Positions 39,334 through 62,215 of a DNA stretch of 64,000 bases are shown piece by piece (the first letter of the stretch is position 1; each line of letters starts with the position of its first letter). Made by a program: the position numbers and the translations under genes. Location of the stretch: the IMG/VR virus record IMGVR_UViG_3300042471_001635. One strand, 5' to 3'. Under the pieces are notes generated by a model. That model worked only from the letters and a program-made list of their open reading frames with translations. It was not told where the DNA came from and did not search any database. The stretch is from a virus. Lineage: Duplodnaviria > Heunggongvirae > Uroviricota > Caudoviricetes.

Positions 39334-42021
39334 ATGGGTGAAAACATTTTTATAAGACCGAGTAATAGTATTTCAAGAACAGTTGATAGAATCCCTTTTA
39401 TTGATTTTATTAACGAGGCTTCTGATGCACCACTTAGAATGAGGATTTATGACCAACTCCCAAATGGTGCTTTTAAACAAATTATCAATTTTTCCAGTAG
39501 TACAACTCCAAATGTACTGACCATAAACTCATCTGCCCAAAAATTAGAAATCTATTCCGTAAATGTTATAAATAACTTAACTATTGGTTCAACTCAAGTT
39601 ATTAATGCAACAGCGGATTGGATAGGACCAACAACAGGAATAGTCGGTACACAAGGAGCAACGGGAAACAAAGGAGCTCAAGGTACTCAAGGAGCTCAAG
39701 GTAATACAGGTGCTCAAGGTTCAGTTGGTGCAAACGGCGCACAAGGTGGACAGGGAGCACAAGGTAGCATTGGACCACAAGGTTCACAAGGAACTCAAGG
39801 AGCTCAGGGTAATACTGGTGCTCAGGGCAACGTAGGACCTCAAGGAGCTCAAGGTACCAAAGGACCTTTCGGAGATACAGGTGCACAGGGAGCCGTTGGA
39901 CCACAAGGTGCACAAGGACCAACTGGAGCTCAAGGAAATACAGGAGCTCAAGGACACACTGGAGCACAGGGTGCGGTTGGACCTGTTGGTGCACAAGGAA
40001 GTACTGGTGCTCAGGGAAATGTTGGTCCACAAGGTGCCACAGGTCCTACAGGAGCTCAAGGAAACACAGGTGCTCAAGGAAACACAGGAGCCCAGGGTGC
40101 CACGGGTCTTACAGGAGCTCAAGGAAACACAGGTGCTCAAGGAAACACAGGAGCCCAGGGTGCCACGGGTCCTACAGGAGCTCAAGGAAATACAGGTGCT
40201 CAAGGACTTACTGGAGCACAGGGAGCAACAGGTCCAACTGGTGCTCAAGGTCCAACCGGAGCTCAGGGTAATACTGGTGCACAAGGAGCCATAGGTACAA
40301 CAGGACCACAAGGGGATACAGGTGCACAAGGGGCCGTGGGTCCACAAGGAGCAACAGGAGATATCGGTGCGCAAGGAGCCACAGGAGCACAGGGTAATTT
40401 GGGACCACAAGGGGCTCAGGGAATTCAAGGTACTCAGGGAAAAGTTGGTGCTCAAGGAGCGGTTGGACCACAAGGTGCAACAGGACCAACAGGACCACAA
40501 GGTGCACAAGGTGGAACCGGACATCCGGGTGCGCAAGGAGCCATAGGTCCAACAGGTCCACAAGGTGCGCAAGGAGGTACAGGACATCCTGGTGCTCAAG
40601 GTGCGTTGGGTCCAACAGGTCCACAAGGTGCACAAGGAGGGACAGGACATCCTGGTGCTCAAGGTGCTATCGGACCCGCCGGACCTACAGGATTTCAAGG
40701 AGCTACAGGACATCCTGGTGCTCAAGGTGCCACCGGACCAACAGGACCAACAGGTGCACAAGGTGCTACAGGACATCCGGGAGCTCAAGGTGCAAAAGGT
40801 TCTATTGGACCACAGGGTGCTGGAGGTGCGACTGGAGCTCTTGGTCCAGCAGGTAACACAGGTCCAATTGGACCAACTGGTCCTCAAGGTGCAACTGGAC
40901 CCATCGGGGCTACTGGTAACACAGGACCAGGGGGACCTACAGGACCTCAAGGTGCACCGGGAGCCACAGGAGCTGGTGGTAACACTGGTCCTCAAGGACC
41001 AACCGGTCCACAAGGAGCACCAGGTACCAAAGGTGCGAACGGAGCTACGGGTCCCCAAGGCCCTACAGGTCCACAAGGAGCTACAGGAGCAACGGGTGCT
41101 ACTGGTGCAACTGGTCCTACTGGGCCAACTGGACCGACAGGACCGCAAGGTGCTCAAGGGGCAGCAGGAGCTAAAGGACCACAAGGTCCAACAGGAGCAC
41201 AAGGTGCAACTGGTACAGCCGGTCCCCTTGGACCACAGGGTGGACAAGGTGCACAAGGTCCTACAGGACCTCAGGGTCCTGCTGGCGGAACTGGACCTAC
41301 TGGTCCTACAGGTGCTCAAGGTGCTCAGGGAGCTACGGGTGTGACTGGTCCTACGGGACCAACAGGTCCAACAGGTGCAACGGGCTCTCAGGGAGCTCAA
41401 GGTGCAACGGGACCTGGAAGTGTAACATGTTATTCAGCTTACATCATAGCAAGAGGTGGAAGAGGTGGTAGCTGTGCGAATGTTTGTTCTACAACTTTTA
41501 CTGTAGGTCCAGTCTACACGCAAAACGCAATTTATACACCATCATCGAATAAATACTTTAGTAACACAAACTGTCAAAATTCTACTTGTGATTGGGGTGG
41601 CTTATACTCTCACGAAAATTTTAATTCTGATTGCTACACATTGAATGCGACCTGTGGTAATGGTACCTTCGATTCTGTTTGCGCCTATTCAGATGTCAAT
41701 CTCAAACAAAGTATAGAGACTTTAGAAGGGGTCATGGAAAAAATCTTGGAAATAGAAACAGTTGAGTATGATTGGAATGAAAACATTGGTAAAGAAAAAT
41801 ATGACATATTTGAAAAAAATAAAAAACTTCACCAAATAGGTCTAATTGCCCAAAACGTAAGGTTACATTTCCCACAGGTAGTGAAAATGGGCTCTGACGG
41901 ATATTATTTTATTGATTATACAAAATTAAATGCTGTAATAGTAGAGGGAATTAAAGAACAACAATTATTTATAGAAGATATTGATAATAAACTTGAAGAA
42001 TTAGAAAAAAGATTTAGCTGA
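39334..42021 (+). CDS. Collagen-like (G-X-Y) tail-fibre protein with C-terminal peptidase-S74 intramolecular chaperone domain
   Basis: 895 aa; ~600 aa of GAQGxTGxQ triplets; C-terminus [29 protein letters not shown]...GLIAQNV... Confidence 0.8.
40489..40800 (+). repeat. Tandem ~63-nt repeat (4-5 copies) inside collagen gene 1
   Basis: Encodes [21 protein letters not shown] reiterated. Confidence 0.6.
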
Positions 42022-57482: not shown

Positions 57483-58903
57483 AAAAACTATTAAAAGAGT
57501 CTGGTTTAAGAGATATTTCGGCTTTGAGGAAAAGATACCCTAAAGCCGAAATTTATTTTCACCTTGACCTTGATGGTGTGACCACCGCAATTGCAATGAA
57601 AAAATACCTTGAGGACAATGGAATCAAGGTGGTTGGAGCACACACCATTCAATATGGGGACAAAGAATTTGCTGTTAAAAAGTTGGATGCTGAAGGTGAT
57701 ACAATGCCGGTACTTGTAGATTTCGCTCATGGTAAACCCATGTTCGTTATTCATACTGACCACCACGACAGACAGGTAGGAGCTGAACCCGAGGCCTCTA
57801 AATCATTCAGACAAGCCCGTTCCAACGTAGAGACAATATCTCAAATAGTTTCTCCTAAAGAAATATTTCCAACCGCAGATATCCTCCTAATAAGCACCGT
57901 TGACTCGGCTAACTTTTTGAAACATGAAATTACACCCGAGGACGTTGTGAATTATATTTTCAGATTGGATAAAGATAAGACCCTTCAGAAAAATAAAATG
58001 TTACTTGGGTTGGTTATCAACAAACTGATTTTAGCTTTCAAAAACCGAAAAGGTTTTATGGAGAGTTTGGTTATGGATTCAGAACCTTCCCTTATGTCCA
58101 TTTTCAATAACATTAAGAAATGGATGAAAATGACAAGTGCTGAGGACTTTGCTACCCTTCAACAAAGGTCCGATGATTACTTGGAACAAATGAAAAAATA
58201 TCCGAAGGTAAGAGTTGAAGACGGAATAATTTTTCAATACGGTGCAGGAAATATGAAGTCTGGTTCATATGATAGATACACTCCTTTTAGAGTGAATCCA
58301 AATGCAGACTTTCTTATTCTAATGTGGCCGATGGGACTTTTACAAGTCTCTTGTAACCCTTTTAAAAAAGACAGAAAGTTGAAAGGAGTTAATTTGGGAG
58401 AGATGGCTCAGGACGTTCTTAAACCTTTTGAAAGCCAACTCAAATCAAGAACAATCCCTCTTTCGACAATCAAATGGTTGAGTGAAATAAGTACAAAACC
58501 CGGTGATGTTGGATTTACATTCAAAGATTTCAATGCCCTTTTCGGTGGTAAAATTGCTTTCATTGATGGAGGTAACGAAATTTTAGATAGAATCAAACCG
58601 ATGATGGACAAACCTTTTTCCGAACTCAAGGAAGAAGAAAAACAACTTTTGGATAAAATTGGAATTAACATGTGGGATTTTATTCAATCAAATTCAGGGG
58701 GACACAAATGTATTACGAATATTTCAGGTCTAAATTTTCTTGGAAGAAAGACAAGACCATCAGAGGACCCATACAGATATGACCCAGATAAGCCAGATGT
58801 TCCATATATCAAATTCATGAGACAACTTGGAACAAAATTTTTCAATATATTGAAAGATAAAATTCAAGAGGAACAACAAAAAGAAAAAGAAGTATCGAAT
58901 TAA
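57479..58903 (+). CDS. DHH-DHHA1 family phosphoesterase (NrnA/RecJ-like)
   Basis: FHLDLDGVTTA (motif I), VIHTDHHD (DHH), C-terminal NSGGHKCI (DHHA1 GGGH-like). Confidence 0.6.
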   Translation: MKKLLKESGLRDISALRKRYPKAEIYFHLDLDGVTTAIAMKKYLEDNGIKVVGAHTIQYGDKEFAVKKLDAEGDTMPVLVDFAHGKPMFVIHTDHHDRQVGAEPEASKSFRQARSNVETISQIVSPKEIFPTADILLISTVDSANFLKHEITPEDVVNYIFRLDKDKTLQKNKMLLGLVINKLILAFKNRKGFMESLVMDSEPSLMSIFNNIKKWMKMTSAEDFATLQQRSDDYLEQMKKYPKVRVEDGIIFQYGAGNMKSGSYDRYTPFRVNPNADFLILMWPMGLLQVSCNPFKKDRKLKGVNLGEMAQDVLKPFESQLKSRTIPLSTIKWLSEISTKPGDVGFTFKDFNALFGGKIAFIDGGNEILDRIKPMMDKPFSELKEEEKQLLDKIGINMWDFIQSNSGGHKCITNISGLNFLGRKTRPSEDPYRYDPDKPDVPYIKFMRQLGTKFFNILKDKIQEEQQKEKEVSN

Positions 58904-59271
58904 AAATGATACTCAACCCAATCTCCGGGTTCTATTCCAACAGTTTCACAATAACCACCGGGTAACTCCAAAACAATATTTCCATTTCCACAATATGTTG
59001 GACATGGTGCTTCATCGCAAGGGGGACAATCGGAGTGAATATTAACAATTACATTATTTTTTATTATGATGATGTCCAAGGGTATAATACAATTTTTCAT
59101 CCAAAAACATTGTTTGTTACCACCCATCAAAAATAATAGGGCTTCGAAGTCTTTGTTGAAAGTTTTACCCATCATCCCAATTGCTTGAGATTTTTTATCA
59201 GTTAAAACTTTTGTTTTGAAAATATTTTTGTTAATTTTGACAAACACAATAATAAATACAAATGGAATCAA
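58900..59271 (-). CDS. DUF192-family protein
   Basis: 123 aa; FWMKNCIIPLDIIII fits the recalled DUF192 motif WMKNT..PLDi. Confidence 0.5.
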   Translation of the reverse strand: MIPFVFIIVFVKINKNIFKTKVLTDKKSQAIGMMGKTFNKDFEALLFLMGGNKQCFWMKNCIIPLDIIIIKNNVIVNIHSDCPPCDEAPCPTYCGNGNIVLELPGGYCETVGIEPGDWVEYHF

Positions 59272-59681
59272 AAAGGTACGCTGGCGTTTTAGTTAAATGT
59301 GGAGACGAAGTTCTCCTCTGCAAAAGAAATAATTTGGGTTCTTTTCCAGGTATGTGGTCAATACCAGGAGGAAAAATGGAAGAAGGAGAAAACTCTCAAG
59401 ATAGTGCAAAGCGAGAGTTTGTAGAAGAAACTGCCGTGGACATTTCAGATAGAAACATAAAGTTCATCGGACTTCTCCCAAGACACACAAGAGACGGAAA
59501 AAAAGTAAAAGGGATGATGTATGTTTACCAACTTGACACTGACCAACCAATTGAACCTGATTTTGCGGCTGCAAAGGACGGTGAAGAACACACCGAATGG
59601 AAATATTTCAAATTAGATGAAATTGATTTCAGACAGTGTGGCGAATTCATGTATAAACTTATTGAAATCGTATTACAATGA
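59262..59681 (+). CDS. NUDIX hydrolase
   Basis: Nudix box GGKMEEGENSQDSAKREFVEETAV. Confidence 0.7.
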   Translation: MESKRYAGVLVKCGDEVLLCKRNNLGSFPGMWSIPGGKMEEGENSQDSAKREFVEETAVDISDRNIKFIGLLPRHTRDGKKVKGMMYVYQLDTDQPIEPDFAAAKDGEEHTEWKYFKLDEIDFRQCGEFMYKLIEIVLQ

Positions 59682-59782
59682 AACTTTTATTGATATCCTT
59701 AACAATTATAATTGTCATTGGAGTTTTCGGTTGGTTCAAAATAAATCAACAAATCAAAAAAAATATTGATAGGTTAGGATGA
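59678..59782 (+). CDS. Possible 34-aa single-TM peptide
   Basis: ATG overlaps the NUDIX stop (ATGA); MKLLLISLTIIIVIGVFGWFKINQQIKKNIDRLG. Confidence 0.25.
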   Translation: MKLLLISLTIIIVIGVFGWFKINQQIKKNIDRLG

Positions 59783-61030
59783 TTTTCCGAAACTTGGAGA
59801 TATTTATATGTTCTTATCCGAAAGGATGAACATCCCCAACACGAGAACTGAAGAAACTGAGAAGTTTCGATAAAATCGGTCCTCACGAGATGAATGAAGC
59901 AGTAATCTCGAAAAAAAGTCCCACAAAATTTGGAAGTATAATTTTCTCACCTTATTTTTGTGGGACTTTATTATCAAAGTAGTTCTTTAACATACTTCTA
60001 CTCAAGGTTCAACCAGAGCATGACTTGGATGGTGACACGGGGACTTGGGTAGTTTTATAATACGGCGGGCGGAGGGCAAGGTGTCCTGTTGGTCTCATAA
60101 GCCAATTTAGCTCAGTTCGATTCTGAGGCGTCGCAACAAAAAAAGTTTTATAAAAATTTGACGAATTGAAAAGTTCTTCTTAATTTTGTAAGACAATTGA
60201 GGGAAAGGGGTTGTAAAGTTCCTTACCGAAGTCGGGGGTTGTAAAAATTTCCACTCTCCTTCAATACTTGATAGTTCTTTGTTTTAAGATATTGGCCGCC
60301 TATGGTCATTAAATAAACTACGAAAGTAGTATAAAGTGGGACACCAGGTTTTAGTGTTCTGCGGTATCAAAGGGGTACTCGAGTAGGCAATCAGGATATG
60401 TTCTGACCTTTAGTACTGAGGGTAACACTGTAGGGAAAGTGGTTGGAATACGGGGCGATACGGGTCGTCTCGTTGAGGTCGGAAGACTAATAAGAATAAT
60501 CTGAGGAATCTATGTGAGAAATTATGGCTTCCACCATAGTCATCACGTAATTCAATATGAAAGTTGACTTAAAACCGAAAGGTAAGTTGATGTACAGGTG
60601 GTGCTGTTATTAACCTTGAAACGTCTCTACCAAGAGCGTATCACTGAAGTTGACTTGAAGTATGGAGGTCGGGAGACTTCAGAGAGTAGTTTAGTATCGT
60701 GTCGTTCAAAAGGCGACACGGCTGGTGACAGACCGCTACTTTCCACATCCGTAAACCAACCCTTAATTGTTAATTCTGGTTTAACAACTTATAATTAAAA
60801 TCAAGGAAAAGTGTCTGTCAGTCGTTGGAAACAGGTGACTACTTAGTCTTGAGATGTTCATGACCGCGTTGGGTCCCAAGCCCTTCACGATTTTCACGAA
60901 AGTTCTCTATTCCCGCAAGGAAGAATTGGGGTGGCAACCTCGAAGAGTGATGAGTAAGGAGAGAGTATTCAACGATTTAAGGATTGGTTAATCTAATTGA
61001 CCGTCACTGAGAGTTACTGTTCAAAAGACA
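59783..61030. other. ORF-free GC-rich (~45-55% GC vs ~33% elsewhere) island; candidate structured non-coding RNA(s)
   Basis: 1.25 kb with no ORF over 66 aa; local hairpins (e.g. cgtgtcg-ttcaaaagg-cgacacg at 60698-60720); direct repeat ggggttgtaaa at 60207 and 60234. Confidence 0.35.
60089..60135 (+). ncRNA. tRNA-like 3' half: anticodon arm (loop CUCAUAA, anticodon CAU), 5-nt variable loop, canonical T-arm (ctcag-TTCGATT-ctgag), acceptor 3' strand gcgtcgc-a
   Basis: Read directly from the sequence; D-arm-like aggg/caaggtg/tcct lies upstream, but no 5' acceptor strand complementary to gcgtcgc was found, so it is not called as a full tRNA. Confidence 0.3.
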
Positions 61031-62215
61031 GTGGAAACGGAGGGAATAAATAATCCTTCTAAAGATTCTCAACAAAGCTTGTATTCTCAGAGTTTTTTGC
61101 CAAACCCTGACCGTTTCTACGGTTGGGGTTTTTTGTTTTCTGAAGTATTTATAAGAAAAAATACGATGTACATAAAAAAACTTTCGCCTCAGGAGGCTTT
61201 GGAAACAATCAAATTGAGAATGAATTATGATTCATCAAAAACTTTGAACGAAAATAAGTTGATAGTCCTCGAACAAAAAGCCAATCTCACAACAAACCAA
61301 CAAGCAGCATTAACTCAAGGTTTTGGTCCTGTGACAGCCAAAGCAGCTGACGATTTAGCTAAACAGGGAAAGTTGAAAACAAACACATTAAAATCTGTTT
61401 TTGGGGGCACTCAAACTCCTACCTCCGCGGTTGATACAAGTACCGCTAACAAACAAACCTCTGACACAGGAGTTGGAAAAGCTATACAACAAGGTGTTCA
61501 AGCGGCAAACCTCAAAATAGATGTATCTTGTATTGGATTCAACGGTGAAGAATATAAAGAAATCACAACAGCTTTAGTAAGCTCTGACGGCATTGGAAAA
61601 CCGGTTCACGTTTGGAGATTTTGGCCTGACGGAAAAGCAATATATGTCGAAAGTGGGGATAAGTATAAGTATACATACAAATGTAGTAAAACTAAACCTG
61701 GTGTTGTTGAAATAACAGATGTTGATTCTTCAGAAGTGGATGAATACAAATTATTTGATAAGAAAAATTCACAAACAGTTGCCCCTAAAAAAGCTGTTCC
61801 AATTCCATCAGAATTGAAAGACATCGAGGGTGTAAAAAAATTCCAAGATTGGTTAGATAAAAACCATGAGGGTTGGCATGACAAATACAAAGTTTTGAAT
61901 AGTAGTGTTCCTAAAGGTTATGGTAAATTTGGTCCGAGAACCAATAAATGGTGGAAACTTGAGGGTCCTGAATTTATAGGTTCAGTTAAACCAACGACAC
62001 AAGCTCCTGATACCACTAAGGCACAAACACAGACCTCCCCAAAAATTGATACAACACCACCAAAAGCTGAAATACCTAAACCCGTAAAAGGCTTTCAAAA
62101 ATTTGCTCAAACTCAATTCGGTGCAAATGGACCTCAAACCACTGCTCAATCGGCAACTGGTGGACCTGCTACCCAAGAAACAAAAAGAGTTGCAAATCAA
62201 GATACTGAATTCTAA
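61031..62215 (+). CDS. Hypothetical protein with T/P/Q-rich C-terminus
   Basis: 394 aa; alternative start MYIKKLSPQE at ~61156. Confidence 0.45.
   Translation: METEGINNPSKDSQQSLYSQSFLPNPDRFYGWGFLFSEVFIRKNTMYIKKLSPQEALETIKLRMNYDSSKTLNENKLIVLEQKANLTTNQQAALTQGFGPVTAKAADDLAKQGKLKTNTLKSVFGGTQTPTSAVDTSTANKQTSDTGVGKAIQQGVQAANLKIDVSCIGFNGEEYKEITTALVSSDGIGKPVHVWRFWPDGKAIYVESGDKYKYTYKCSKTKPGVVEITDVDSSEVDEYKLFDKKNSQTVAPKKAVPIPSELKDIEGVKKFQDWLDKNHEGWHDKYKVLNSSVPKGYGKFGPRTNKWWKLEGPEFIGSVKPTTQAPDTTKAQTQTSPKIDTTPPKAEIPKPVKGFQKFAQTQFGANGPQTTAQSATGGPATQETKRVANQDTEF

What the first reader, a model, noticed from the sequence alone, without database searches (positions are those of the whole stretch)
59783..61030. 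1.25-kb GC-rich ORF-free island carrying a tRNA-Met-like 3' half
Local GC rises to ~45-55% against ~33% elsewhere, and no ORF exceeds 66 aa. There are multiple local hairpins (e.g. 7-bp cgtgtcg/cgacacg at 60698-60720) and a short direct repeat (ggggttgtaaa x2 at 60207-60244). At 60089-60135 there is a tRNA-like anticodon arm (anticodon CAU), a variable loop, a canonical T-arm (TTCGATT loop) and a 3' acceptor strand. A D-arm-like segment is also present, but I could not find a 5' acceptor strand that pairs. The possibilities are: (a) a large structured phage ncRNA of the GOLLD/ROOL/HEARO type, which often lie near tRNA-like elements; (b) an attP core or tRNA-fragment remnant; (c) a degenerate tRNA; or (d) a replication origin.
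Basis: seen in the sequence. Interest (0 to 1): 0.7.

Follow-up and report, generated by a model that had tools for sequence, protein, structure and literature searches.

The report
Phage GOLLD RNA with initiator-like tRNA
The ORF-free island is a phage gene for GOLLD, a known ~800-nt non-coding RNA that builds hollow RNA cages and has no known function, and it is preceded by a complete but unusual initiator-like tRNA(CAU) that turns out to be specifically linked to this kind of GOLLD.

Summary
Rfam matches GOLLD (RF02032) full length at 60682-61093 (318 bits, gathering score 150). The 5' domain, which Rfam does not model, lies at 60293-60681. It is 77% identical to env-38 GOLLD, the RNA solved by cryo-EM as a 14-mer cage, and it keeps 18 covariation-supported helices. 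Most residues that bridge chains in the env-38 cage are conserved or compensated. A strong intrinsic terminator follows at 61102-61140.

The "tRNA 3' half" is a complete cloverleaf at 60064-60136, anticodon CAU. It has a 1:72 mismatch and one bulged G (60130) in the 3' acceptor strand, which is why no pairing 5' strand was seen. ARAGORN calls it in the wrong register, and Rfam's tRNA model scores it below threshold. Covariation in 20 homologues supports the bulged fold.

Two copies of one promoter-like cassette, the only two in 64 kb, precede the tRNA and GOLLD.

The GC claim is overstated (40.5% against 36.2%). The attP, degenerate-tRNA, origin and coding readings are rejected.

GOLLD itself is a known family. 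The possibly new point is the specific linkage between env-38-type GOLLD and initiator-type tRNA(CAU), including the bulged subfamily.

The parts
59800..59838 (+). Small conserved hairpin module (GUUCUUAUCC-GAAA-GGAUGAAC, then AUCCCC). Function unknown. It lies ~265 nt upstream of the tRNA.
   Evidence: Conserved at 76-92% identity in at least 11 GOLLD/tRNA loci. AUCC/GGAU becomes ACCC/GGGU in L088, L111 and L237. Fold.
59911..59958 (+). Promoter-like cassette P1: A-tract, TTGGAA, 18-nt spacer, TATTTT, followed by TGTGGGAC. It sits inside a long inverted repeat (arms 59915-59928 / 59956-59969, -20.3 kcal/mol) that could also terminate the upstream NUDIX/small-ORF operon.
   Evidence: One of only two matches in 64 kb to the composite motif (shuffles average 0.16). 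Conserved in L244, L238, L088 and L237. Fold. Promoter function is inferred.
59966..60063 (+). Leader upstream of the tRNA, with the conserved block CAACCAGAGCAUGACUUGGAUGG. Relatives L088, L238, L248 and L237 carry an extra ~225-nt insert here that looks like a ~64-aa ORF; the window and L244 lack it.
   Evidence: Alignments.
60064..60136 (+). Complete initiator-like tRNA(CAU) with a bulged acceptor stem. Acceptor 60064-60070 / 60128-60135, with G60130 bulged and G60064 x A60135 mismatched. D stem 60073-76/60084-87. Anticodon stem 60089-93/60101-05. CAU at 60096-98. T stem 60111-15/60123-27. Discriminator A60136. No encoded CCA.
   Evidence: ARAGORN call at 60061-60137 in a different register. 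Rfam tRNA 22.7 bits, below the gathering score of 29. On 20 homologues the bulged register gives 94% of cells paired, 11 pairs with double changes and 85.7% pairing in the acceptor helix, against 54.3% for ARAGORN's register.
60138..60186 (+). Promoter-like cassette P2 for GOLLD: A-tract, TTGACG (60159-64), 16-nt spacer, TAATTT (60181-86), followed by TGTAAGAC. The predicted start is near 60193.
   Evidence: Second of the only two motif matches in the window. The core ends at -140..-60 (peak -120..-110) from the GOLLD core start in 40 of 89 distinct loci, and at -107 in the window. The block recurs in many loci (71 BLAST hits). Function is inferred.
60197..60267 (+). Leader hairpin between P2 and the GOLLD core.
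   Evidence: The closing stem 60199-60204/60257-60262 covaries within the clade (AU 12/GC 2; AU 9/GC 5). No family-wide consensus helix was found.
60293..60681 (+). GOLLD 5' domain, corresponding to env-38 residues ~1-420, which form the cap of the cage.
   Evidence: 77% identity to env-38 over 378 aligned positions. RNAalifold on 57 sequences below 95% identity gives 18 helices that are 86-100% paired, most with several covarying pairs, and the window keeps nearly all of them.
60682..61093 (+). GOLLD 3' domain, the conserved part modelled by Rfam, which forms the ring of the cage. It includes the A/U-rich variable linker at about 60745-60820.
   Evidence: RF02032, 317.9 bits (gathering score 150), E 3.3e-90, model 1-416/416, not truncated. 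74% identity to env-38.
61102..61140 (+). Intrinsic terminator: a 13-bp stem with a 4-nt loop, followed by UUUUUUGUUUU.
   Evidence: The only terminator-like site found in 59200-61500. Folding energy -19.2 kcal/mol. 93-96% conserved in L100, L018, L010, L021 and L052.

Best explanation
The island is a phage non-coding RNA cassette on the + strand. Its main product is a GOLLD RNA of the env-38 type, with its core at 60293-61093. This is probably transcribed from the promoter-like element P2 (60138-60186) with a ~100-nt leader, and it ends at the intrinsic terminator 61102-61140.

By homology to env-38, the RNA is expected to fold into a 5' cap domain and a 3' ring domain, and to self-assemble into a closed homo-oligomeric RNA cage through kissing loops and A-minor contacts. 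The biological role of such cages is unknown.

Just upstream is a complete, structurally maintained, initiator-like tRNA(CAU) with a one-nucleotide bulge in its acceptor stem (60064-60136). It is probably expressed from the sister promoter-like element P1 (59911-59958), processed by RNase P and given its CCA end after transcription. In this clade of phages, initiator-type tRNA(CAU) is the habitual same-strand neighbour of GOLLD.

Shown here: family membership, domain structure, the tRNA fold and the genomic linkage. Inferred: promoters, transcript ends, cage assembly, tRNA charging, and any functional coupling between the tRNA and GOLLD.
For: Family and domain structure:
- Rfam GOLLD full-length hit, 317.9 bits.
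- End-to-end alignment to env-38, 75% identity overall, both domains present (sequence from PMC12286853 Suppl. Table 4).
- 18 covarying helices in the 5' domain.

Cage contacts (env-38 inter-chain bridges mapped to the window):
- The B4 5-bp kissing loop is fully retained with one compensatory change (U414-A253 becomes G60675-C60528).
- The B2, B8 and B9 G-C contacts are conserved. B7 keeps pairing (C-G, U.G).
- The donor adenosines of the A-minor bridges B1, B3, B6 and B10 are conserved.

Transcription signals:
- Terminator.
- The promoter-like motif occurs only twice in 64 kb, once before each RNA gene, and at a fixed distance from GOLLD in 40 of 89 loci.

tRNA:
- The cloverleaf with a bulged G is supported by covariation.

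Linkage:
- Among 92 distinct env-38-type loci, 29 of 32 same-strand tRNAs within 700 nt upstream and 12 of 18 just downstream are Met(CAT). Elsewhere in the same loci, Met(CAT) is 11 of ~270 tRNAs.
- 15 of 31 bulged-type tRNA(CAU) genes found independently of GOLLD have a same-strand GOLLD in the fetched locus, against 1 of 86 other CAU tRNAs.
- The paper notes that env-38 itself lies 'downstream of Met-tRNA'.

Context:
- Phage genes: tail fibres, primase, SbcC-like nuclease, methylases.
Against: - There are no expression data, so promoters, the start site and processing are inferred from consensus and conservation only.
- The P2 -10 element (TAATTT) matches TATAAT at only 3 of 6 positions, and the generic scan did not list it.
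- Cage assembly is extrapolated from a 75%-identical homologue. Stoichiometry differs between GOLLD members (12-mer against 14-mer, PMC12990946). The window has shorter hairpins than env-38 at some places. Several acceptor-side residues of the A-minor bridges differ from env-38. The B5 bridge could not be mapped reliably.
- The tRNA fails Rfam's curated threshold and lacks the third G:C pair of the initiator anticodon stem, so its ability to be charged or used is unproven.
- Part of the invariance in the tRNA alignment comes from the search pattern used to collect members.
- Same-strand tRNA(CAU) adjacency is not seen in two cultured GOLLD phages from another clade.
Confidence: 0.93

Rival explanations
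1. The tRNA-like element is a decaying pseudogene or an attP/tRNA-fragment remnant with no function, and only GOLLD matters.
For: Rfam tRNA scores only 22.7 bits, below the gathering score of 29. The acceptor stem is irregular, CCA is not encoded, and the anticodon stem has only 2 G:C pairs plus U.G. A mycobacterial GOLLD has an unexpressed 'pseudo tRNA' (PMC6582537).
Against: The cloverleaf is complete. 11 of 21 pairs show double (compensatory) changes across 20 homologues and 94% of cells are paired, against at most 50% in slid controls. The 8-nt versus 7-nt acceptor asymmetry (a one-nucleotide bulge) is itself conserved across divergent members. The element coexists with a canonical initiator tRNA in L113. 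No integrase was seen among the ORFs scanned.
Confidence: 0.1
2. The tRNA(CAU) serves mainly as a processing handle. RNase P or RNase Z cleavage at the tRNA would define the GOLLD transcript ends, as mascRNA does for MALAT1, rather than the tRNA acting in translation.
For: In L067 and L014 the bulged tRNA begins 6-8 nt after the GOLLD 3' end with no terminator between them. In the window no terminator separates the tRNA from GOLLD, so read-through from P1 is possible.
Against: The anticodon is CAU in 41 of 50 flanking tRNAs identified independently of any anticodon pattern, and the anticodon loop is CUCAUAA in the flanking tRNAs aligned. A pure processing signal would not need this. Initiator identity elements are kept (G2:C71, C3:G70, A73, weak or mismatched 1:72). 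In the window a separate promoter-like element lies between the tRNA and GOLLD.
Confidence: 0.2
3. The island is a disrupted or frameshifted protein-coding gene, or a replication origin.
For: It is 1.3 kb long without ORFs, with local hairpins and a short direct repeat.
Against: There is a full-length hit to a curated RNA family. Substitutions among homologues follow base-pairing, not codon structure. The repeat lies inside a covarying RNA stem. Cumulative GC skew rises smoothly across the island.
Confidence: 0.01

Closest known systems
GOLLD RNA, env-38 representative (Rfam RF02032; cryo-EM 14-mer, PDB 9MEE; Kretsch et al. 2025, PMC12286853)
   Same: The 3' domain matches Rfam full length (318 bits). 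The 5' domain is 77% identical. The order is the same: 5' cap domain, variable linker, 3' ring domain. Most inter-chain bridge residues are conserved or compensated. The context is a phage or metagenome, and a tRNA-Met lies upstream.
   Different: About 25% sequence divergence. Some hairpins are shorter, for example the GAAA-capped stem at 60574-60583. A ~100-nt leader with a covarying stem lies upstream of the construct boundaries used for cryo-EM. The upstream tRNA is the bulged variant. Assembly state is untested.
Other GOLLD subtypes: Streptococcus agalactiae GOLLD (12-mer, 9L0R), Lactobacillus brevis prophage GOLLD, and Mycobacterium tRNA-array GOLLD with an embedded tRNA-Phe or pseudo-tRNA
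   Same: The same conserved 3' domain and the same association with phages and tRNA genes (PMC12990946, PMC6582537).
   Different: Those have divergent or reduced 5' domains, or carry a tRNA inside the J13/15 linker. Here the linker (60745-60820) holds no tRNA, and the tRNA is a separate upstream gene.
Bacterial initiator tRNA-fMet (features from established knowledge, using E. coli metZ/metY as reference)
   Same: CAU anticodon in a CUCAUAA loop. Mismatched 1:72 with A72. G2:C71, C3:G70 and A73. A 3' end reading ...GCAAC. Purine11:pyrimidine24. G29:C41 and G30:C40. Canonical D-loop GG and T-loop TTCGATT.
   Different: One bulged G in the 3' acceptor strand. G1 x A72 instead of C1 x A72. U31.G39 instead of the third G:C pair. 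G11:C24 instead of A11:U24. No encoded CCA. Below Rfam's tRNA threshold.
ROOL RNA (another phage RNA that forms nanocages)
   Same: A large ornate phage ncRNA found near tRNA genes that forms a homo-oligomeric cage (PMC12286853).
   Different: Unrelated sequence and fold. No ROOL match in the window, even in the permissive scan of 59600-61300.

Membership tests
GOLLD RNA (RF02032) | Score at or above the curated gathering threshold of the Rfam covariance model over the conserved 3' domain | tested here: met
   317.9 bits against 150, E 3.3e-90, model 1-416/416, not truncated.
GOLLD RNA (RF02032) | A large, less conserved 5' domain upstream of the 3' domain, giving a total length of about 800 nt | tested here: met
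   60293-60681 aligns to env-38 residues ~1-420 at 77% identity. 18 helices are supported by covariation in 57 homologues.
GOLLD RNA (RF02032) | A variable, unstructured linker between the first 3'-domain hairpin and the rest (J13/15; disordered residues 497-538 in env-38) | tested here: met
   The A/U-rich stretch at ~60745-60820 aligns to unpaired model positions 63-140 with lower posterior probability.
GOLLD RNA (RF02032) | Phage or prophage context, usually close to tRNA genes | tested here: met
   Tail fibre, primase, SbcC-like and methylase genes. A tRNA(CAU) lies 156 nt upstream.
GOLLD RNA (RF02032) | Self-assembly into a closed homo-oligomeric cage | not testable with these tools
   Indirect only: most env-38 bridge residues are conserved or compensated in the window, while some A-minor acceptor residues differ and B5 is unmapped.
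GOLLD RNA (RF02032) | Expressed as a discrete RNA that rises during phage lytic growth | not testable with these tools
   Only a promoter-like element and a terminator are available.
tRNA (RF00005), bacterial initiator type | Cloverleaf with four helices maintained by compensatory change | tested here: met
   94% of cells paired, 11 pairs with double changes, 0 of 500 shuffles reach the covariation score. A one-nucleotide bulge is needed in the acceptor 3' strand.
tRNA (RF00005), bacterial initiator type | Score at or above the Rfam tRNA gathering threshold | tested here: not met
   22.7 bits against 29. Other bulged members score 30.5-31.3 or fall below threshold, while canonical neighbours score 52-64.
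tRNA (RF00005), bacterial initiator type | Initiator acceptor features: 1:72 mismatch, G2:C71, C3:G70, A73 | tested here: met
   G60064 x A60135, G60065-C60134, C60066-G60133, A60136. 2:71 and 3:70 are invariant in 20 members and 1:72 is unpaired in 10 of 20.
tRNA (RF00005), bacterial initiator type | Three consecutive G:C pairs at 29:41, 30:40 and 31:39 of the anticodon stem | tested here: not met
   G:C, G:C, then U.G at 31:39 in 19 of 20 members.
tRNA (RF00005), bacterial initiator type | Aminoacylation, formylation and use in translation | not testable with these tools
   No data.

The most novel reading that the evidence does not exclude
Env-38-type GOLLD cages have a dedicated partner: an initiator-type tRNA(CAU), in either a canonical or a previously undescribed bulged-acceptor form. 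The two forms behave as interchangeable cassettes at one genomic slot. The tRNA is either fused to the GOLLD 3' end or placed just upstream.

If the link is functional, with the tRNA as cargo, tethered substrate or co-factor, then GOLLD would act in phage control of translation initiation. That would fit the reported pull-down of ribosomes with GOLLD and the neighbouring tmRNA genes and tRNA arrays.
Probability: 0.25. Interest if true: 0.75.

Novelty: new member of a known kind. Interest (0 to 1): 0.35.

Why it matters
GOLLD is one of the largest bacterial and phage non-coding RNAs. It is now known to build RNA-only cages, but its function has been open since 2009. This locus adds little on its own, being one more member.

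The comparative work around it does give a concrete, testable lead. In this clade the immediate same-strand neighbour of GOLLD is almost always an initiator-type tRNA(CAU). A distinct bulged-acceptor version of that tRNA is strongly enriched next to GOLLD (15 of 31 against 1 of 86). Near-identical phages also swap the two tRNA versions precisely. Together these point experiments toward translation initiation and tRNA handling as the place to look for GOLLD's function.

There is also a practical lesson: standard tRNA finders mis-fold or miss this tRNA variant.

Tried and rejected
- ARAGORN's register for the tRNA (60061-60137) was rejected. Its acceptor helix is only 54.3% paired across homologues, against 85.7% for the bulged register.
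- The TATAAT at 60056-60061 (11/12 promoter match) was rejected as the tRNA promoter. It ends 3 nt before tRNA position 1, and it is created by the junction where the window and L244 lack the small ORF seen in relatives.
- The permissive Rfam scan of 59600-61300 gave only sub-threshold chance-level hits besides GOLLD. The L10 leader, sar and PyrR hits simply overlap the terminator.
- The GC island as a signal was rejected as not exceptional.
- The source of the window could not be identified. There was no megablast match for 40000-64000 in the phage collection and only two weak 3'-domain hits in uncultured 630-640-kb phages. The exact linker 45-mer is absent from IMG/VR.
- The genome-collection scan gave one 2-kb contig from a Bacteroidetes MAG, so there is no firm host.
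- The env-38 B5 bridge could not be mapped, because the PDF-derived env-38 sequence is ~18 nt short and the local numbering is ambiguous there.
- No family-wide consensus structure was found for the leader 60188-60292; only a clade-level stem was found.
- Weinberg 2009 (PMC4140389) and Morgado 2020 (PMC7549688) are not held. I therefore cannot exclude that the tRNA(CAU) linkage is noted there.
- Two cultured GOLLD phages (CcrBL9, Bajun) do not show same-strand tRNA(CAU) adjacency.
Full report
**1. What is in the sequence**

The stretch 59783-61030 has no ORF above 66 aa.

The GC claim does not hold. The island is 40.5% GC against a window mean of 36.2%. That ranks 102nd of 628 equal-sized windows, and the collagen-like tail-fibre genes reach 58%.

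**2. The main element is a GOLLD RNA**

A scan of all 64 kb against Rfam at curated thresholds gives exactly one hit: GOLLD (RF02032) at 60682-61093 on the + strand, 317.9 bits against a gathering score of 150, E 3e-90, covering model positions 1-416 of 416.

Rfam models only the conserved 3' half. [quoted passage not shown] I took the sequence of env-38, the member solved by cryo-EM, from Supplementary Table 4 of that paper. It aligns end to end with window 60293-61088 at 75% identity: 77% in the 5' domain and 74% in the 3' domain.

A 21-nt signature of the 5' domain found at least 119 viral contigs. An RNAalifold consensus on 57 of them (below 95% identity to each other) gives 18 helices between 60293 and 60655. 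These are 86-100% paired, most have several covarying pairs, and the window keeps nearly every pair.

Eight relatives tested with Rfam all carry GOLLD at 303-325 bits.

The gene ends with the only terminator-like site in the region: a 13-bp stem at 61102-61131 plus a U-run, -19.2 kcal/mol. The listed downstream ORF starting at GTG 61031 therefore overlaps the RNA spuriously; its likely start is the ATG at 61166.

**3. How it probably works**

Env-38 GOLLD assembles without protein into a closed 14-mer cage with D7 symmetry. The 5' domains form the caps, the 3' domains form the rings, and ten inter-chain bridges hold the chains together. The linker is disordered and lies inside the cage.

I calibrated the numbering of my slightly truncated env-38 copy against about 150 residue identities in Supplementary Tables 1-2. 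I then mapped the bridges onto the window:
- The 5-bp B4 kissing loop is fully retained, with one compensatory double change (env-38 U414-A253 becomes window G60675-C60528) and one G-C to G.U change.
- The B2, B8 and B9 G-C contacts are conserved.
- B7 keeps pairing.
- The donor adenosines of the A-minor bridges B1, B3, B6 and B10 are all conserved, although several of their acceptor residues differ.
- B5 could not be mapped.

This fits the view that the window's RNA forms a similar cage, but it is an inference. Another GOLLD forms a 12-mer. The biological function of GOLLD is unknown. Published ideas include encapsulating tRNAs or ribosomes.

**4. The "tRNA 3' half" is a complete but unusual tRNA**

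ARAGORN calls tRNA-Met(CAT) at 60061-60137. Its fold needs an A x C mismatch, a 5-nt acceptor-to-D spacer and an unpaired G. Rfam's tRNA model reaches only 22.7 bits, below the gathering score of 29, and leaves the 5' acceptor strand unaligned.

Homologues of this odd element exist in other GOLLD loci, and a pattern scan found more. On an ungapped alignment of 20 distinct members (A1) I compared two registers.

The register I propose has:
- an acceptor 5' strand at 60064-70;
- a 2-nt linker;
- D, anticodon and T arms as usual;
- an acceptor 3' strand at 60128-35 with G60130 bulged.

This register gives 94% of cells paired, 11 pairs with double changes, and a covariation score of 0.47 against 0.17 in shuffles (0 of 500 reach it). 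Slid controls are at most 50% paired. The acceptor helix is 85.7% paired, with covariation at 4:69 (AU 9, GC 9, UA 2) and 7:66 (GC 9, CG 7, UA 2). ARAGORN's register gives only 54.3% pairing in the acceptor.

The tRNA therefore spans 60064-60136.

The element looks derived from an initiator tRNA. This judgement uses established knowledge of E. coli tRNA-fMet identity elements:
- Features it shares: mismatched 1:72 with A72, invariant G2:C71 and C3:G70, A73, and a ...GCAAC end.
- Features that differ: a U.G pair at 31:39 instead of the third G:C pair, G11:C24 instead of A11:U24 in the window, and no encoded CCA.

One caveat applies. Members L120 and above were collected with a pattern covering the anticodon arm and T-loop, so invariance there is partly built in.

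**5. The tRNA and GOLLD are linked**

Among 92 distinct env-38-type loci, 29 of 32 same-strand tRNAs within 700 nt upstream are Met(CAT), as are 12 of 18 just past the 3' end. Elsewhere in the same loci, Met(CAT) is 11 of about 270 tRNAs. The upstream tRNAs are mostly canonical initiator-type (CGCGGGG..., C1 x A72...GCAAC).

Profile searches that also catch the bulged type show that 35 of 64 loci with full flanks have such a tRNA.

The converse also holds. Among tRNA(CAU) genes fetched without reference to GOLLD, 15 of 31 bulged-type genes have a same-strand GOLLD in the fetched locus, against 1 of 86 others.

In L067 and L014 the bulged tRNA starts 6-8 nt after the GOLLD 3' end. L113 has a bulged and a canonical copy in tandem.

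The most telling case is L244, from a 98.8-kb metagenome contig. Its GOLLD is 99.6% identical to the window's and its flanks are the same, but it carries a canonical initiator tRNA exactly where the window has the bulged one. Relatives show all four combinations of tRNA type with presence or absence of a ~64-aa ORF. The two tRNA types thus behave as interchangeable cassettes in one slot.

The paper notes only that env-38 lies "downstream of Met-tRNA". I found nothing on a GOLLD-initiator tRNA link in the searchable literature, but the 2009 and 2020 GOLLD papers are not held.

In two cultured phages from a different clade, GOLLD lies near tRNA arrays, a tmRNA and tRNA-Met genes, but not in this same-strand arrangement.

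**6. Transcription signals and the rest of the island**

A composite motif (A-tract, TTGRN, 16-19 nt, TANNTT) followed by TGTRRGAC occurs only twice in the 64 kb on either strand. One copy is at 59911-59958, before the tRNA. The other is at 60138-60186, before GOLLD. Shuffled sequence averages 0.16 matches.

The stricter core lies at a fixed distance (peak -120 to -110) from the GOLLD core in 40 of 89 loci, and at -107 in the window. I read these as promoters P1 and P2; that is an inference. P1 sits inside a long inverted repeat (-20.3 kcal/mol) that could also terminate the upstream NUDIX operon.

Between P2 and the GOLLD core is a leader whose closing stem covaries within the clade.

The first part of the island (59800-59838) holds a small hairpin module conserved in at least 11 related loci. 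Its function is unknown.

**7. Context**

The window is phage-like: three tandem collagen-repeat tail-fibre genes, a primase, an SbcC-like nuclease, DNA methylases, and NUDIX, DUF192 and SPFH genes. Many ORFs have no family match. It has no close relative in the phage collection or IMG/VR.

The env-38-type signature is almost absent from 185,000 bacterial and archaeal genomes. The single hit is a 2-kb contig of a Bacteroidetes MAG. This fits lytic, uncultivated phages. The tRNA(CAU) is the only tRNA in the 64 kb.

**8. Verdict**

It is a new member of a well-known family, so the core finding is ordinary.

The corrections are that the tRNA is complete, the GC contrast is modest, and the feature runs to 61140.

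The added value is the specific linkage of this GOLLD clade with initiator-type tRNA(CAU), and a bulged-acceptor tRNA subfamily that standard tools mis-call. This gives a testable lead on GOLLD function.

Noticed in passing
L014:861-1249 (+) and L067:2804-3190 (+); also ON529858.1 192406-192838 (L251:2907-3339): Phage-encoded tmRNA genes (Rfam 65-75 bits) lie within 1-2 kb of GOLLD in two viral contigs and in Brevundimonas phage Bajun, on the opposite strand. GOLLD neighbourhoods seem enriched in translation-related RNAs beyond tRNAs.
   Followed up: partly
L088, L238, L248 and L237, between the conserved leader and the tRNA (the junction in the window is at 60057/60058): A ~225-nt insert that looks like a ~64-aa ORF (MKKDKNENQVPLFKDL... 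in L088) is present in some close relatives and absent from the window and L244. This presence/absence varies independently of the tRNA type.
   Followed up: partly
window 59800-59838: A small conserved hairpin (GUUCUUAUCC-GAAA-GGAUGAAC, then AUCCCC) with a compensatory AUCC/GGAU to ACCC/GGGU change, found ~265 nt upstream of the tRNA in at least 11 related loci. An alternative GGAU-GAAC-AUCC hairpin is possible. Function unknown.
   Followed up: partly
window 39334-47043: Three tandem paralogous tail-fibre genes (895, 819 and 853 aa) with collagen-like repeats. This is the most GC-rich part of the window (up to ~58%) and produces many spurious overlapping ORFs on both strands.
   Followed up: no
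L113:8957-9112: A bulged-type and a canonical initiator-type tRNA(CAU) sit in tandem, 4-5 nt apart, about 490-640 nt upstream of GOLLD. This shows the two are distinct coexisting genes.
   Followed up: partly
window 59678-59782 and 58900-59271: A conserved 34-aa hydrophobic ORF (MKLLLISLTIIIVIGVFGWF...) follows the NUDIX gene and is also present in L111 and L244. A DUF192 gene lies on the minus strand among plus-strand genes.
   Followed up: no
window 60186-60245; also 59979-59986, 60173-60179 and 60275-60283: Short motifs recur around the RNA genes. UUGUAA occurs three times between P2 and the leader loop, and AGUUCUU occurs in the P1 leader, in the P2 spacer and just before the GOLLD core. 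These could be protein-binding or regulatory sites. Not tested against chance.
   Followed up: no
L250 (MH588546.1 83839-85292): In Caulobacter phage CcrBL9 the published GOLLD position (83990-84405, minus strand) falls in a 1.45-kb stretch with no annotated feature, next to a tRNA array. GOLLD is thus unannotated in that GenBank record.
   Followed up: no
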